57,885 nt of DNA from positions 1-57,885 of the forward strand of contig JAYNIA010000010.1 in assembly GCA_038108555.1 (NCBI GenBank), given 5' to 3'. Made by a program: the position numbers. Below are positions 42,001-54,000 of the stretch, in pieces (the first letter of the stretch is position 1; each line of letters begins with the position of its first letter). This DNA is from Nitrospinota bacterium (lineage in GTDB: Bacteria; Nitrospinota; Nitrospinia; Nitrospinales; VA-1).

Positions 42001-45000
42001 ATCCGTAACCCGGAAGGTCGGCAAACATTAATTGTCCATTGATTTTGAAGAAATTTATTTCCCGTGTTTTTCCAGGTGTGGAACTAATTCGTACCAGTTT
42101 TTTCCGATTCAATAGAGATCGAATCAGTGAAGATTTTCCAACATTCGACCTTCCCACAAATGCGAATTCAGGAAAAGATCCCTTGGGATATTGTTTCGAG
42201 GAAACGGCTCCCGTCAAAAATTCGGTATCAACTACTTTCATGGTTATATTTCTTTTGTCAATTATTTCTCGAACTGGTTAATCACAAGACCTGATAACAG
42301 TTTGGGGTAGAAAAATGTGGCCTTCTGCGGCAAGCGGATTCCTTTGCCCGCCAAACTTCGCACTTCCTTTATTTTTGTGGGATTCATAAAAAAGGCGGCA
42401 TCATATTCTCCCGAATCTACCAGAGCCATAGCTTCTTCGGAATTCACCTTGTAAGAAACATATTGCTGGTTTGACTTTTCTCTCGTATCAATTTTCAAAA
42501 TTTCACGGAGGATAATAGCATGCAATTGCATGACATCTAAAACCTGCAAATCTTTAGGTTCATCATTATCAAGGAGTGGAAGAATATTTTTAGGGTCATT
42601 GGCAATCAGGGTATAGGTATGACCTTTACCCATATAAGCGCAAAATGTAATCGTTCCCCTTCCGAATTCAAGCAGGCGAGACTTTATTTCCTTTCCATTG
42701 ACTTCTGTAGTCCAGGGGATGACATCAAAATATTCACTGGCACGTTTTAAGAAATTCTCCCGGTCAAAGGGGGTCGGACTTTTTACAAGACGATGGATTG
42801 GAAATATGGACATGGAACCGGAATCCATATTGGTCAAAAACATCATTACATGGGAGCAATCAGCAATGGCGTCTTCGTTTTTTTGAGCGAAGGCCAACGC
42901 AGTTTCATATCGATGATGACCATCTGCGATATAGATTTTTTTATCGCGAATCAAATCACTGATTTTTTGATTGTCGTCAGGATTGTCCAGTCTCCAGAGT
43001 TTGTGGACGACCTGATTGTCATCAATTTTGGATAAAGGAATTTGCTTGATGCCTGCATTTAAAATAGGGTCAATTTCCCCTTCCGGGTCAGAATACAATC
43101 CAAATATGGGACTGAAATTTGCGTGGCAGGCATTCAAAAGTTTTGTGCGATCGGTTTTAGCTTTGGAAAGTGTGAATTCGTGTGGGCAAATGTTTCCCTG
43201 ACTGAAGTCTTCTAATTTGACTCGCGCAAAAAATCCAGTTCGACGAAAACTTTCTCCTTCAAACTCATATTCCTGACTGTAAAGATAAAAAGCCGGTTCT
43301 TTATCCCTTTGCAAAACTCCTTTTTGGGTCCATTCCTTAAAAACATTTGCGGACCGAGTGTATCGATTATCGGTTTCCGAATCAGTTTCATATTCTTTAC
43401 CCAGGATGAGCCGCACTACATTGTATGGGTTTTTCTCGTATAAGGCTTCCTGTTGATTAGGGGAAATTACATCATAAGGTGGCGCGATTACCTCTTCGAG
43501 GGGACCCGTGATATCAAGGTTGAATAACAGACCATGAAAAGGAATAACTTCGATCATGTTTTCCTCGCTATAGGAGTTTCCAAACTAGCGAGTATTATAC
43601 AAAAATAAAAGCGATCATTGAAAGCGGCTTATAAAGCTTCGCACTGGCATAGCTCACGAATGTAGCGAACCAGTTCATGGATGGTTGAATCGTCAAGCGT
43701 GTTCCCCCATGCAGGCATGCAAGGTGCTCTTCCAACCGATAACCCTCCAAACTTAATGGCTTCAAAAAACTGTTCGTCGGTCCGGGTTTCCAGATATTCC
43801 GCTTTGGTATGGTTTCTTGGGGGAACCGTTAGAAATTTCGCGTTGATTCCATCTCCCTTGCCTTTAATACCATGGCATTGAGCGCAGTACCATTGATAGG
43901 TTTCTCGGGTTTTTTCTGTAACCTTGACCGGCTCTGGAGCTGCCTCTTCTTTAGTAGGGGGGGATGAAATTTCTGCTTTAAGAGGAGGTTTGGGGGACTC
44001 GGTTTCATCAGCCTCTTTTTGACCGCACCCGGCCAAGCCAAGGGCGATCATGAGGATTCCTGAAATAAAAATTAAAAAATTTTTGTTCATGGATCAGCGC
44101 TGTTTTTCTTTTTTAAGAGTCATGATGAACTGTGTGAATCGCAACCGTGTTTCATCATCCATTTTAAAAACCGGCATGCGGCTTTTGTCGGTAAAGATCT
44201 TGGGATCTTTTAACCAATTCGAAACCCAATTGGCCTGCAACCGGTTTCCAGCATCGACCAGGGAGGGACCAGAAATTCCCCCGCGAGGTTTGCCTGCCAG
44301 GTTTAAACTTTGGTGACAGGAAATGCAGCTGAATGTGCGCTCAAACTCGTATTTGGTTTTTGCAATTTGACCTTTGCTTAAAGGGCTACCTTCTTCAACA
44401 GGCAAATCAGGAATTGTAAGGGCCATTAATTCGGTGGTTATTTTTTCAGCTTCCTCTTTGGAAAGGGCCGGATGTTTTTCTCCAGGGGTGCCTTTTAAAA
44501 ACCCGGGACTGTTGATGGTCCCTGCTTTCCGTAGGGTTACCGGGTTTTGAAGATATTCTTTCAACCACGTGCCTTTAAATTTGTCTCCGGCATAAAAAAG
44601 GTCGGGTCCTTCTTTTCCCTTATCTGCTTTAGAGAAACGGTGACAGGTGCTGCATTTCTTATCTTCAATTAAAGAGGCATGAGAATTCAGGGGACTAATT
44701 AATAGCAACCCAAAGATCAGGAGAAAATTAAGTTTGTTCATAATGGCGTGGCTTCATTTGAAGAAGGAAAGGGCTCCGTGTCAGGGCCGTTTTCCGCAGG
44801 TTCTTTTTCATTTGAATCTTTTTCTTTCTTCTGGAAAATGTCATATAGAAATTCAATTATTCCTTCTTCCTTTTTTTCCGGTAAAGATTCTGTTGTCAAG
44901 CTCTCCTCTTTTTTAATCTCGATCTGTTGAGAAGGTTCGGTCGGAAGCTCTACCGGAGCCATGACTAGATTGCCAGATTTGTTTTTCGTCACAAATTGGT

Positions 45001-51000: not shown

Positions 51001-54000
51001 CAGCAAAAGTGGAAATAATTCCATTTGCATCTACTTTCCGGATGCGGTTATTTCCCATATCGGTGATGTACATATTATTTTTGGAGTCAAAGGCAATGGC
51101 CAGGGGACTTTTTAGCATGGCTTTTGTCGCTGGGCCTCCGTCTCCAGAATATCCCTGGTAACCATTTCCTGCCACCCTGACTATTTTCCCATCTTTGGTT
51201 ATTTTTCTAACGGTGTTGGCGTTCATCCCGACTATATGAAGTTCTCCCTTGGGGCTAACTGCCAAATAGTTCATATGGCGGATACTGGCTTCAAGTGCAG
51301 GACCACCGTCTCCAGCGTTTTTATGTTTTCCATTTCCGGCCACAGTGGTAACGATGCCATGGGTGTCGATTTTTCGAATCAGATTGTTCGCGCCATCGGC
51401 AATATATAAATTCCCCTCCTTATCAGTTGCCAGGTAACTGGGATCACGGAATGCTGCTTCACTTGCCGGACCACCATCCCCGTAATATCCTGACTCTCCG
51501 GTTCCGGCGATGGTGGTGATTTCGCCTTCATGATCCACTTTACGGATCTGATGATTGAGCCGGTCAGAAATAAACATGTTTCCTTTATGATCAAAGGCAA
51601 AATCTGAAAAGGTCGTAATCGTAGCCAGTTCTCCTGTCTGTACCTTACCCTTGTATTTGCTGTTCTCAATTGAGTCCATATAATCAGGGTCTACCGTGTC
51701 CAGGAATTTACGCATGATTCCATTTTCATCAATTTTGCGGATCAGGCTTACAAATCCACTCGGACTGATGATATACATTTCACCTTTATTATTCAGTTTC
51801 AAAGAGGTGGGATTATAGATAGAAGCTTCCATGGCAGGTAAACCGTCACCAATATTCCCCCGCTTTCCATTTCCAGCAATCGTTTGGATGATGCCATCTG
51901 GGGAGATACTACGAATGCGATAGTTCCCTTTATCAGATACAAGCACATTGTCATTTTTATCCACCGTGATACCATGTGGAAAGCTCAAGGTAGCCCCGGT
52001 TGCCGGGCCCCCATCCCCTTGAAACATTTTTTCTCCATTTCCTGCGATAGTTGTTACGCTTCCCCTTTTAAGGTTGACGCTACGGATTCGATAATGCGAG
52101 CGGTCAATGATCAGCAGGTTTCCTTCAGGGCTGACCGCAACTCCAAAGGGAAGATGCAGGTTAGTTTCCCGGGCAACTTCAGAGTCCCCGTTGTAATCCT
52201 GTCTCCCTGTCCCGACGACTGTGGTGATCATTCCCTGTGAATCCACAGCCCGTACGCGGTTGTTGCTTCGATCAGCGATGTACAACACACCCTCATTATC
52301 TACGACAACACCTGTGGGGCCTGCAACACTTGCGCGATACGCCGGGCCATTGTCACCACTGAAAAAGAATCCACCATCACCTGCTACTGTTGTAATAATT
52401 CCCCGAGTATTTACTCTTCGTACCCGGTTATTGCGGCGGTCTGCGATGTATAAATTGTCTTTCGCATCAAAGGCTATTCCAAAGGGCTTATCAAGAGTGG
52501 CTTGAGTCGCGGGCCCGGAATCTCCTTTAAAGCCTTCTTTGCCATTCCCGGCATAGGTGCTGATGATTCCATTGGAATCAATCTTCCGGATGCGGTCGTT
52601 GGATCGGTCTGAGAAATACAGATTTCCTTTTTGATCGAAAGCAATTCCAGAGGGATGCTTAATTTGCGCGTTCTTAGCCTGTCCTCCGTCACCACTGAAA
52701 CCAGCAGTCCCTGTGCCTGCGATGGTGGTTATGGTTCCACTTGTATCCACTTTGCGAATACGATGGTTGTTTCTGTCTGCAATATATAAATTTCCGCGCT
52801 TGTCGAAGGCCAGCCCCGCTGGGACGTTCAGTCTGGCTTCAGTGGCTTTGCCACCATCTCCACTGAACCCTGAGGAACCATTGCCGGCATAGGCAGTCAT
52901 GTTACCGTTTAGGTCAATGCGGCTGATAACATTGTTATCCCGCCTGGCAATATAAACATTTCCCTTTTTATCCACAGCGATACCATCCACCAGAGATATT
53001 TCAGTATTGGTTGCTGAAAGGGTTTTCGCAATTACCTCAGATTTTGGGAAAGCACTTCCCAGCAAAAAAGTTAGGACCGCAAATAAGAAAAAATATTTTT
53101 TGAACATGTTAAAAAACCTCGTTATAGGCAATAAATGTCGAAAAATGATCCTTAAATCTTATCTATTTAAAATAAAATTTAACGGGGATAAATCGAATTT
53201 GCCCGGAAAGAAAAGCCTTAAATGTCTTGTAAGATAGACAATTATACGTTTCATTAAATCCTTGTCAAATGAATTCAATTTCCCGGCTTTTTTGAGTTGA
53301 TACATTTAATTTTGGCCTACCATTTACAAAAAAAATTTCTTTAAAAATTCTTACAATCACCCCTATTTTAAAGGTTTTTAGGAGGTCTGGATTCAATGGA
53401 GAAGTCCCATGGTGTGGTAACAGGAACTACAATTTGGACCAAACATTTGTGGTTTATAAAGCATTTTATAAGAAGGAAATCCTTTTTAGATTAAATTTTT
53501 TTTAATTTTCATGAAAATGATGTAAACTATTTAGAATCAAAGACAAAGAGGAATTTCGGGCAGGATGCCAAGCTAATTTTTTGGCTAACAATTAAGCAAT
53601 AACTAAAGGACGTATCTTTATGCGAATTGCAACTTTATTGATTTTTGTTTCGATCCAGACCCTCGGGATTATTTCCGGTGTTAAAAATGCTTCTGGAGAT
53701 GATTTGCATCTTTCATTTGAGAATGAAGTTGCGGGAATTACTCCTGGAATGGTGATCCTTCCCAAAGCAACCGGAAGTTTGCAACAACCCGGTTCTCATT
53801 CCACTGAGTCAAAGGCCTCAAAGCCAGGCCATTCAAACAAAAATCAAATTGATAAAGAAAAATCCAGAAAAAAGATTGGTGAAGATTTTTATGCGAACGC
53901 AGGTTTCATTTCCAAAAATATGGTCCCTGTTGGAAAGGTGGCAAAATTATTCGACAACAAACTGGGAACTTCCGGACCTGAAAAAGTGTTCATTGATTTG

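What a model noticed while it worked through the whole genome (the two positions that open the first line are those of the whole stretch)
43629..53107. Core operon of an 11-haem and a 10-haem cytochrome of no known family, with NHL propeller and Hpt genes
Seven co-directional genes encode a 724-aa NHL beta-propeller protein, a 167-aa secreted protein, a stand-alone Hpt protein, two large secreted cytochromes with 11 and 10 CxxCH motifs (796 and 925 aa, distant paralogues, no Pfam or PDB relative) and a di-haem and a mono-haem cytochrome c: 24 haems in all. The 11-haem gene is present in nearly every genome of family VA-1, including the small pelagic ones, so I propose that this is a core periplasmic electron store/wire that links nitrite oxidoreductase to the oxidase and bc complexes and buffers electrons when O2 fluctuates. 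It would be a new multihaem family in the central respiratory chain of the ocean's main nitrite oxidisers.
Evidence so far: CxxCH counts g01160 11, g01159 10, g01158 2, g01157 1; signal-like N-termini; no Pfam/NCBIfam/Swiss-Prot row for g01159, g01160; phmmer against PDB chains: 0 hits at E<=0.01 for either. g01160 matches in 64 of 70 genomes of the family (31 of 32 >=90% complete; 12 of 12 genera), 50-75% identity over the full length, with a second weak match 1-2 kb downstream that corresponds to g01159.
(Added by a program. Inside this text positions count along the whole contig: contig position 1 is position 1 of the stretch shown here. "Call 12" and the like, gene names such as g00115 and contig names such as C1 are that model's own, and its searches are not shown. 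The text may have been shortened before it was handed on; [...] marks where a part breaks off. The agent that wrote the report below was given it as the finding of a first reader that could run no searches.)

Follow-up and report, generated by a model that had tools for sequence, protein, structure and literature searches.

The report
Multihaem cytochrome pair of nitrite oxidisers
Marine nitrite-oxidising bacteria carry two large haem-rich proteins that belong to an already named but unstudied family; they probably plug into the respiratory bc complex as an optional extra enzyme, not as a new core wire for nitrite oxidation.

Summary
The seven genes, haem counts and conservation are real, but 'no known family' is wrong. 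Both big cytochromes are homologues of Geobacter ExtM (GSU2935/CbcM, Cbc6 complex): NF040943 E 2e-87 and 4e-54, below its cut-off, and the 11-haem protein is colinear with a true ExtM. A conserved CX4CH probably makes it a 12-haem protein. The family spans many phyla, often beside or fused to Rieske/cytochrome b. In six Desulfobulbales genomes and one further contig, orthologues of this pair and of c1 share one operon with orthologues of the Nitrospinales Rieske/cyt b/octahaem bc complex; in Nitrospinales the two halves lie apart. Both AlphaFold models match only octahaem tetrathionate reductase (Z 7.0, middling), and a ligand count leaves one haem open, so an enzyme is somewhat likelier than a wire. 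The pair is core (50 of 51 near-complete genomes of the order) but was cleanly lost twice, once in a 97%-complete genome that keeps nxrA. NHL, SnoaL, c2 and c1 stay behind (Hpt in one case), so the seven genes are not one machine. New variant of a known kind; function untested.

The parts
47512..49902 (-). M11: ExtM/CbcM-family periplasmic cytochrome c, 796 aa from the ATG (807 aa from TTG at 49935), 11 CxxCH + 1 CX4CH = probably 12 haems. Cleavable-looking signal, short helical stalk, N-terminal haem module shared with the octahaem bc subunit, OTR-like core
   Evidence: Atlas record starts at residue 12
49435..49455 (-). CX4CH non-canonical haem motif (haem 3; residues 161-167 in 807-aa numbering)
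49378..49380 (-). Met186, probable distal ligand (Met 219 / His 24 of 259 family members; equals the OTR His 11-12 residues after its first haem)
48562..48564 (-). Met458, probable distal ligand (Met 197 / His 26 / Lys 25 of 259; aligns with an invariant OTR His)
48637..48918 (-). Acidic, unconserved, disordered linker (residues 340-433, 35% D/E, pLDDT < 50)
44738..47515 (-). M10: paralogous ExtM-family decahaem cytochrome c (925 aa) lacking haems 10 and 12; overlaps M11 by 4 nt and is lost together with it
46184..46186 (-). Lys444 of M10 at the Met/His ligand position after haem 7 (Lys in 83 of 89 Nitrospinales-type hits; Met, Glu or His in outside orthologues)
44094..44741 (-). c2: secreted di-haem cytochrome c, homologous to a di-haem module of the octahaem bc subunit (27% over 203 aa, E 7e-18). 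Retained when M11/M10 are lost; unlinked from them in G091
43629..44090 (-). c1: mono-haem cytochrome c lipoprotein (lipobox-like Cys22); homologues flank the pair in the Desulfobulbales bc operon
49954..50262 (-). Stand-alone Hpt protein (PF01627); usually next to M11 (19 of 22 loci) but kept when the pair is deleted in G009. Cytoplasmic signalling protein, probably a neighbour only
50357..50860 (-). Secreted SnoaL-like protein (PF13474 E 0.0015, below cut-off); travels with the NHL gene, not with the cytochromes
50933..53107 (-). Secreted teneurin-type NHL beta-propeller protein (PF25021), 724 aa from the ATG; a match in 98 of 102 genomes of the order (a few rows look like a paralogue), unlinked from M11 in some
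53241..53268 (-). Sigma-70 consensus TTGACA-16-TATAAT (12/12) upstream of the NHL gene; consensus match only

Best explanation
M11 and M10 are the Nitrospinales form of the ExtM/ExtN (CbcM/N) multihaem pair of a Cbc6-type Rieske/cytochrome b complex whose genes have been split in two. The membrane core (Rieske, cyt b6, subunit IV, octahaem c) lies on contig C21 and the periplasmic pair lies here. Shown: family, haem content, one-operon arrangement in relatives, co-loss of the pair, OTR-like models. Inferred: the two proteins form a 22-haem unit that docks on the bc complex or trades electrons with it through c1/c2. It has an OTR-like open haem and acts as an auxiliary oxidoreductase for a small N or S oxyanion (nitrite, hydroxylamine, tetrathionate or thiosulfate). 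Most likely it is a quinol-fed electron sink when stored carbon is burnt or O2 is short. It is useful enough to be near-universal, but it is not needed for nitrite oxidation.
For: Family: NF040943 294/184 bits; colinear with a bona fide ExtM (1095 bits) over residues 98-799, 25%, E 3e-56. Operon: L137 and five more Desulfobulbales (6 of 201 sampled) read Rieske-cyt b-subunit IV-octahaem-(c1)-M11-M10, then c1-tetrahaem where the contig reaches, with 44-49%, 61-67%, 42-45% and 30-35% identity to the C21 genes. Contig L224, 65% to a Thermodesulfovibrionales M10, has the same order. Close octahaem orthologues (56% or more) occur in the same 6 of 201 genomes. FastTree puts Desulfobulbales M11 next to the Nitrospinales M11 clade plus two unnamed proteins (0.997), and the Desulfobulbales/Thermodesulfovibrionales M10 group next to Nitrospinales M10 (0.954). 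The ExtS model hits the C21 octahaem at 101 bits, cut-off 100. Of 74 non-Nitrospinaceae family loci, 25 have a Rieske gene, 28 an adjacent or fused cyt b, and 23 both. Catalysis: the only chain with Z >= 5 among 48,161 is OTR 1sp3, for both models (Z 7.0, rmsd 5.1, 296-299 aligned). All eight OTR haems map in order onto haems 3-9 and 11. About 10 near-universal haems face 9 family-wide distal ligands. Mass per haem is 7.2 and 10.3 kDa, against the >7 'catalytic' rule in PMC7096707. An AlphaFold study classes cable-bacterial ExtN as having a pentacoordinate haem (PMC11976967). Precedent: an HAO-like octahaem on the Kuenenia Rieske/b complex Kuste4569-4574 (PMC12954380).
Against: In Nitrospinales no Rieske or cyt b gene lies within the 15-20 kb fetched around the pair (0 of 22 loci). 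The bc operon exists without the pair: in family f5 (4 of 4 have the octahaem, 0 of 4 have M11), whose cyt b is closer to Nitrospinales (79%) than the Desulfobulbales one, and in G054. Z 7.0 is within the tool's typical no-match range of 7-8. Motif-preserving shuffles reached the real hhalign score in 1 of 25 trials. OTR's catalytic Lys (position recalled) is not conserved at the aligned K212. Nitrospinales-only conserved His residues (M11 H170/H177/H257; M10 H433/H517/H536) could fill the open site. M11 without its linker is only 6.3 kDa per haem. Many relatives sit beside dedicated enzymes (molybdo-oxidoreductase in 23 of 74 loci; MccSep in Geobacter, PMC13510729), where a relay role would suffice. 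No substrate evidence.
Confidence: 0.4

Rival explanations
1. Same bc-linked ExtM/N pair, but a non-catalytic relay or capacitor. It passes electrons between the bc complex and small carriers (c2, c1), for example for reverse electron flow from nitrite. His/Met haems give a high-potential end.
For: The bc linkage above. M186 and M458 are probable Met ligands. The Desulfobulbales operon holds other carriers (c1 copies, c554-like tetrahaem, cupredoxin). In Geobacter and Bacteroidota the family sits beside separate catalytic enzymes (PMC13510729). Extra Nitrospinales-conserved His residues could close all sites.
Against: Large protein per haem, an OTR-like fold and a family-wide ligand deficit. 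The bc complex has its own octahaem subunit and works without the pair in G054 and f5.
Confidence: 0.3
2. In Nitrospinales the pair has left the bc complex. It works alone as a periplasmic detoxifying or accessory enzyme that exchanges electrons only with soluble cytochromes.
For: Never near bc genes in Nitrospinales (0 of 22 loci). Evolves much faster than the bc core (M11 about 60% against cyt b 95% in G073). Several relatives have the pair or a single gene with no bc neighbour. Cable bacteria also keep extM/extN homologues apart from extKL (PMC11976967).
Against: The nearest outside orthologues with known context of both genes, with c1-like neighbours, are in a bc operon.
Confidence: 0.15
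3. One reading: a core wire or store linking NXR to the oxidase and bc complexes.
For: Present in 50 of 51 near-complete genomes of the order and not found, apart from weak distant hits, in other orders. Periplasmic like NXR. Probable His/Met haems.
Against: Clean loss in G054, which keeps full-length NxrA (96%) and the bc octahaem, and in G009. No gene link to nxrAB. Orthologues in genomes with no Nitrospina-type NxrA hit.
Confidence: 0.1
4. Part of an extracellular electron transfer route to Fe/Mn minerals, as suggested in print for Nitrospinaceae multihaem clusters.
For: PMC11995701 suggests this for clusters with up to 12 haem sites. Geobacter ext genes rise on Fe(III) (PMC5877670).
Against: No porin-like gene recognised beside the pair in the Nitrospinales loci. 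Only Z 2.6 to MtrA. Found across the whole order.
Confidence: 0.05

Closest known systems
Geobacter ExtM/ExtN (GSU2935/GSU2934; CbcM/N) of the Cbc6 / extKLMNOPQS cluster
   Same: Full-length colinear 12-haem ExtM homologue followed directly by a 10-haem paralogue; Rieske, split cyt b and ExtS-like genes exist in the same genome.
   Different: 25% identity, far below the equivalog cut-off. M10 is a full-size paralogue, not the 415-aa ExtN. The bc genes are unlinked. No extHIJKL at the locus. CX4CH at haem 3 and Lys at one ligand site of M10. The role of Cbc6 itself is unknown (PMC13591261).
Octahaem tetrathionate reductase (Shewanella OTR, PDB 1sp3; TIGR04315)
   Same: Top and only Z >= 5 structural match for both models; eight haems in the same order; His/Met ligand positions map; one OTR-family row also has CX4CH at the matching haem.
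   Different: Two extra N-terminal haems, plus haems 10 and 12 in M11. Met replaces two His. The aligned Lys is not conserved. No TIGR04315 hit at E 0.1. Z is only 7.0.
Rieske/cyt b complexes with octahaem c of Nitrospina, Kuenenia (Kustd1480-85, Kuste4569-74) and Methylomirabilis
   Same: The C21 operon is this complex (PMC3578206). Its octahaem shares the N-terminal haem module with M11 and a di-haem module with c2. Kuste4569-74 carries an extra HAO-like octahaem.
   Different: The extra subunit here is an ExtM-type pair, not HAO. Whether anammox bacteria or Nitrospira carry the pair was not tested.
NrfA, MccA, TsdA and HAO catalytic multihaems
   Same: Weak profile hits to NrfA (E 1e-6) and MccA (E 6e-4); HAO 4n4j at Z 2.7.
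   Different: No CxxCK, no CX15CH, no spare cysteine for Cu or His/Cys ligation.

Membership tests
ExtM equivalog (NF040943) | Score of at least 800 bits | tested here: not met
   294 and 184 bits; a true ExtM scores 1095
ExtM/CbcM family (broad) | Twelve haem motifs colinear with ExtM over the full length | tested here: met
   M11 residues 98-799 align with L112 ExtM, E 3e-56, all haem positions matched, haem 3 as CX4CH. M10 has 10 of the 12
Cbc6 / ext cluster | extM-extN in one operon with Rieske, cyt b, ExtQ and ExtS | tested here: not met
   0 of 22 Nitrospinales loci have Rieske or cyt b genes in the fetched 15-20 kb. Met for orthologues in 6 Desulfobulbales genomes and L224
Cbc6 / ext cluster | Rieske, split cyt b and ExtS homologues present in the genome | tested here: met
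   C21 operon; ExtS model 101.4 bits against cut-off 100
Cbc6 / ext cluster | Physical complex of the pair with the Rieske/cyt b core | not testable with these tools
Cbc6 / ext cluster | Upstream ExtKL (MccSep), ExtI porin and ExtH rhodanese | tested here: not met
   Upstream genes are Hpt, SnoaL and NHL; not searched genome-wide
OTR (TIGR04315) | HMM cut-off of 375 bits | tested here: not met
   No row at E 0.1; one family member in G124 gives E 9e-4
OTR (TIGR04315) | OTR fold and eight-haem arrangement | tested here: inconclusive
   Z 7.0, rmsd 5.1, far above the next chain but middling; hhalign 97.4%, but 1 of 25 shuffles reached the local score
OTR (TIGR04315) | Lys-ligated catalytic haem 2 (recalled, not from a call) | tested here: not met
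   The aligned K212 is not conserved (V 90, I 44, L 40 of 259)
OTR (TIGR04315) | One haem without a distal protein ligand | tested here: inconclusive
   Nine family-wide candidate ligands for 10 near-universal haems; no coordinates were available to check the geometry
NrfA / MccA / TsdA | CxxCK, CX15CH or a free catalytic cysteine | tested here: not met
   All 24 Cys of M11 and 20 of 21 of M10 are in haem motifs; the other is in the signal region
Porin-cytochrome (MtrCAB-type) conduit | Adjacent outer-membrane beta-barrel gene | tested here: not met
   None recognised in the window or among the recurring neighbours in 20 relatives

The most novel reading that the evidence does not exclude
The unstudied ExtM/ExtN family is an OTR-derived class of catalytic multihaem enzymes built onto Rieske/cytochrome b complexes. 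In the ocean's main nitrite oxidisers it forms a 22-haem enzyme, with a Nitrospinales-specific Lys-ligated haem, that lets them reduce nitrite, hydroxylamine or polythionates with quinol. That would be a second, overlooked N/S respiratory capacity in a group thought to be metabolically narrow.
Probability: 0.25. Interest if true: 0.8.

Novelty: new variant of a known kind. Interest (0 to 1): 0.52.

Why it matters
Nitrospinales drive marine nitrite oxidation and are abundant in low-oxygen waters, yet their atypical bc complex and their largest conserved cytochromes have no assigned role. Tying the pair to Cbc6 and to an OTR-like fold gives testable predictions: a partner complex, an open haem, Met and Lys ligands, and natural deletion lineages. 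It also points to a function for the widespread, uncharacterised ExtM family. It removes the claims of a new family and of an essential NXR wire.

Tried and rejected
Foldseek against PDB with the M11 model gave no match at E <= 0.001. phmmer against PDB gave best E 0.36. The A1 profile gave only weak hits to NrfA, ActA and MtrA. The RNA run search listed no holder, so expression is untested. Complex prediction (M10 core with the M11 C-half) was not available, so binding is untested. Earlier-findings look-ups showed nothing. The metagenome scan with a Thermodesulfovibrionales M10 gave one true orthologue locus among 12. A copper-site idea, raised by the cupredoxin, HMA and ABC genes in the Desulfobulbales operon, was dropped: there are no spare Cys here, and tblastn found no homologue of that operon's permease, membrane or HMA genes in this genome. 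A covariation test of His between haems 5-6 against haem 10 showed no clean link, so I did not assign ligands to haems. A seven-gene unit was rejected: glycogen/trehalose genes often lie between SnoaL and Hpt, NHL is unlinked in G091 and G007, and G009 lacks only M11+M10. Presence in anammox bacteria and Nitrospira was not tested, because no suitable handle was held; none was named among the top 120 hits, where only a minority carry names. Eight literature searches found no paper tying these Nitrospinales genes to ExtM, Cbc6 or OTR. The library lacks most subscription papers, and the PMC11995701 supplement was cut and only sampled.

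
Full report
Observation. The seven minus-strand ORFs are at the stated coordinates. The four cytochromes carry 11, 10, 2 and 1 CxxCH motifs and one N-terminal hydrophobic stretch each. I call the large ones M11 (47512-49902) and M10 (44738-47515); residue numbers for M11 follow the 807-aa ORF from 49935. They are paralogues and the two most haem-rich ORFs of the genome, level with one decahaem on C57. 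M11 also has CGQLYCH, a CX4CH kept in 20 of 20 orthologues and 42 of 42 parsed loci out of 56 examined. It aligns with an ordinary CxxCH in M10 and in ExtM, so M11 probably binds 12 haems. The host is placed in Nitrospinales by 71-73% M11 identity to named Nitrospinaceae records and by a Tat-signalled NxrA on contig C3.

Family. The claim of no known family fails. NCBIfam ExtM (NF040943) hits M11 at E 1.7e-87 and M10 at E 4.2e-54, below the 800-bit cut-off, and Pfam c3/c7 models pass their thresholds. M11 aligns over residues 98-799 with a Geomonas ExtM that scores 1095 bits. phmmer finds 1093 clusters at 50% identity. Of 20 unusual hits scanned, five are fused to cytochrome b, four to LVIVD propellers and one to c-type domains. 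I tallied 74 of the 80, dropping 2 with no parsed target, 1 duplicate and 3 Nitrospinaceae. Of these 74, 25 have a Rieske gene, 28 an adjacent or fused cytochrome b, and 23 both. Also, 23 have a Phs/Psr-like molybdo-enzyme, 15 YeeE sulfur transporters and 20 rhodaneses. In print, GSU2935 (12 haems) and GSU2934 (10 haems) lie with a Rieske protein and cytochrome b in a conserved Geobacter bc cluster (PMC2825233, passages; PMC5877670, passages). This Cbc6 complex has no known role (PMC13591261, passage), and the gene upstream encodes a polysulfide reductase (PMC13510729, passages).

Link to the bc complex. This genome has a Rieske, cyt b6, subunit IV and octahaem c operon on C21. It is the atypical complex III described for Nitrospina gracilis, Kuenenia and Methylomirabilis (PMC3578206, passages and supplement rows; no row for the pair under 'cytochrome'). 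Locus L137, a Desulfocapsaceae MAG, joins both halves in one operon: Rieske (48% to C21), cyt b (65%), subunit IV (44%), octahaem (31%), c1-like, M11-like, M10-like (34% over 818 aa), c1-like, tetrahaem. Of 201 genomes sampled from that order, 6 have the M10 orthologue. All 6 show this arrangement, one cut by a contig end and two without a called c1 before M11. The same 6 hold the close octahaem orthologues, and 3 others hold distant ones. Contig L224, 65% identical to a Thermodesulfovibrionales M10, has the same order. In a FastTree of 175 de-replicated sequences, these orthologues are the nearest placed relatives with known context of both Nitrospinales clades (supports 0.997 and 0.954; midpoint root, no donor claim). 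The ExtS model just passes its cut-off on the C21 octahaem, c2 resembles one of its di-haem modules, and M11 shares its N-terminal haem module. Against the link: no bc gene lies near the pair in 22 Nitrospinales loci, and family f5 has the bc operon, with a closer cyt b (79%), but no M11.

Structure and ligands. AlphaFold2 models are confident: M11 pLDDT 86.8, disordered at the acidic linker, and M10 79.8. Foldseek found nothing. Against 48,161 chains, both models matched only Shewanella octahaem tetrathionate reductase above Z 5 (Z 7.0, rmsd 5.1, 296 and 299 residues, nearly the whole chain; next best Z 2.6 and 2.7). That Z is middling by the tool's own scale. Profile comparison with six OTR-like proteins gave 97.4% and 95.4%, and a relaxed alignment puts OTR haems 1-8 on haems 3-9 and 11. 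However, 1 of 25 motif-preserving shuffles reached the real local score, so the sequence signal beyond motif spacing is modest, and multihaem cores often overlay (PMC8840924, passage). In 259 full-length members, haems 1-8 and 11 are near-universal (258-259), haem 9 is in 236 (the gaps fit alignment trimming), haem 10 in 146 and haem 12 in 140. Family-wide distal candidates number nine: H112, H135, M186, H313/H317, H441, M458, H557, H562, H673. M186 and M458 switch between Met and His, as ligands do. M10 has Lys at the M458 position in 83 of 89 Nitrospinales-type hits. One haem is thus left open, as recalled for OTR haem 2, which corresponds to haem 4 here. This is a count, not geometry, and Nitrospinales-only His residues could fill the site. 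Mass per haem is 7.2 kDa (6.3 without the linker) and 10.3 kDa (8.2 for the core), against the published rule of under 5 for carriers and over 7 for enzymes (PMC7096707, passages). Cable-bacterial ExtN was modelled with a pentacoordinate haem (PMC11976967, section 14). OTR is reported to reduce nitrite and hydroxylamine (reference title only).

Conservation and loss. M11 matches 94 of 102 genomes of the order and 50 of 51 near-complete ones; 0 of 10 in families f5-f8; and 3 of 8 weakly in f9. Across 22 loci, M10 is present in 22, c2 and c1 in 21, Hpt in 19, and NHL and SnoaL in 15. DUF1015 and yihA are each present in 17, so synteny alone proves little. G054 (1.7 Mb, 97% complete) keeps full-length NxrA (96%), the bc octahaem, c2-c1-DUF1015-yihA in mid-contig and NHL-SnoaL elsewhere, but has no ExtM candidate. 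G009 (71% complete) reads NHL-SnoaL-one gene-Hpt-c2-c1 on one contig, with exactly M11+M10 missing. In closed genome G091, NHL and c2 lie far from the pair. The unit is therefore M11+M10, and it is dispensable. None of 5 Desulfobulbales genomes tested (of the 6 with the operon) has a Nitrospina-type NxrA hit, and 3 of 5 have a haem-copper oxidase-family gene.

Mechanism. Most likely the pair is the periplasmic arm of a split Cbc6-type complex with an OTR-like active haem, serving as an auxiliary quinol-linked oxidoreductase (0.40). A non-catalytic bc relay follows (0.30), then a stand-alone enzyme (0.15), the NXR wire (0.10) and mineral electron transfer (0.05). Binding, substrate, direction and expression are all untested.

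Novelty. Nitrospinaceae multihaem clusters with up to 12 haem sites are in print without a family or role (PMC11995701, passages; supplement sampled). A phylum-wide comparison does not mention them in the passages read (PMC10839748). Cbc6 homologues outside Geobacter are noted for seep sulfate reducers (PMC10553843, passage). A Desulfuromonadia cytochrome survey has no ExtM/CbcM mention in its main text (PMC11492766). Passages of the Manganitrophaceae preprint (10.1101/2021.11.15.468770) and PMC13194489 added nothing on function. Eight searches found no paper making the ExtM, bc or OTR connection for Nitrospinales. Verdict: real, a new variant of a known kind, interest about 0.5.

Noticed in passing
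L055:4722-15025 (G000:C57): A second multihaem operon in this genome: pentahaem, 478-aa secreted protein with no Pfam hit, c554-like tetrahaem, cNMP-binding + 4Fe-4S protein, membrane protein, decahaem and FAD/NAD/2Fe-2S reductase.
   Followed up: partly
L039:3-1925 (G091): A partial ORF with 27 CxxCH motifs followed by a pentahaem gene, about 6.6 kb upstream of the pair in a closed genome.
   Followed up: no
L054:10924-13878 (G048): The M10 orthologue is split into two ORFs (411 + 556 aa); a frameshift or an assembly error.
   Followed up: no
L036, L037, L038, L040, L041, L047-L054: Glycogen-debranching / alpha-amylase-family and trehalose synthase genes are inserted between SnoaL and Hpt or M11 in 13 of 20 loci; one follows NHL-SnoaL when the block is split in G007.
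   Followed up: partly
window 50933-53107 and 50357-50860: The NHL propeller is more conserved than the cytochromes (51 of 51 near-complete genomes of the order, mostly 61-86% identity), stays with the SnoaL-like gene and has no assigned role.
   Followed up: partly
L240:3773-14066 (G002): Two tandem Rieske/cyt b/multihaem operons (9 and 8 haems) in a sister-order genome that lacks the pair.
   Followed up: partly
L202-L207 (Desulfobulbales), downstream of M10: The bc/M11/M10 operon continues with a c554-like tetrahaem, a cupredoxin, a FtsX-type ABC transporter, a membrane protein, a thioredoxin-like protein and HMA proteins; in two genomes resB/ccsA and cytochrome c3 genes lie divergently upstream.
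   Followed up: partly
window 40806-41636 (+): A 276-aa protein with three PCP_red (proto-chlorophyllide reductase-like) repeats, 95% identical in a Nitrospina record.
   Followed up: no
window 37403-40612 (-): A 1069-aa fused membrane / spermidine-synthase-like / TPR protein with at least three paralogues in the genome.
   Followed up: no
P0074, P0090, P0091, P0140, P0148: ExtM-family haem cores fused to LVIVD propeller repeats (four of the five above the Pfam cut-off as best evidence, all five hit) and in three to EF-hand repeats; similar-sized genes occur in Planctomycetota loci.
   Followed up: no
L105:3900-6863: A natural ExtM-ExtN fusion with 19 CxxCH motifs in a Desulfobacterales MAG, in front of Rieske and cyt b genes.
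   Followed up: partly
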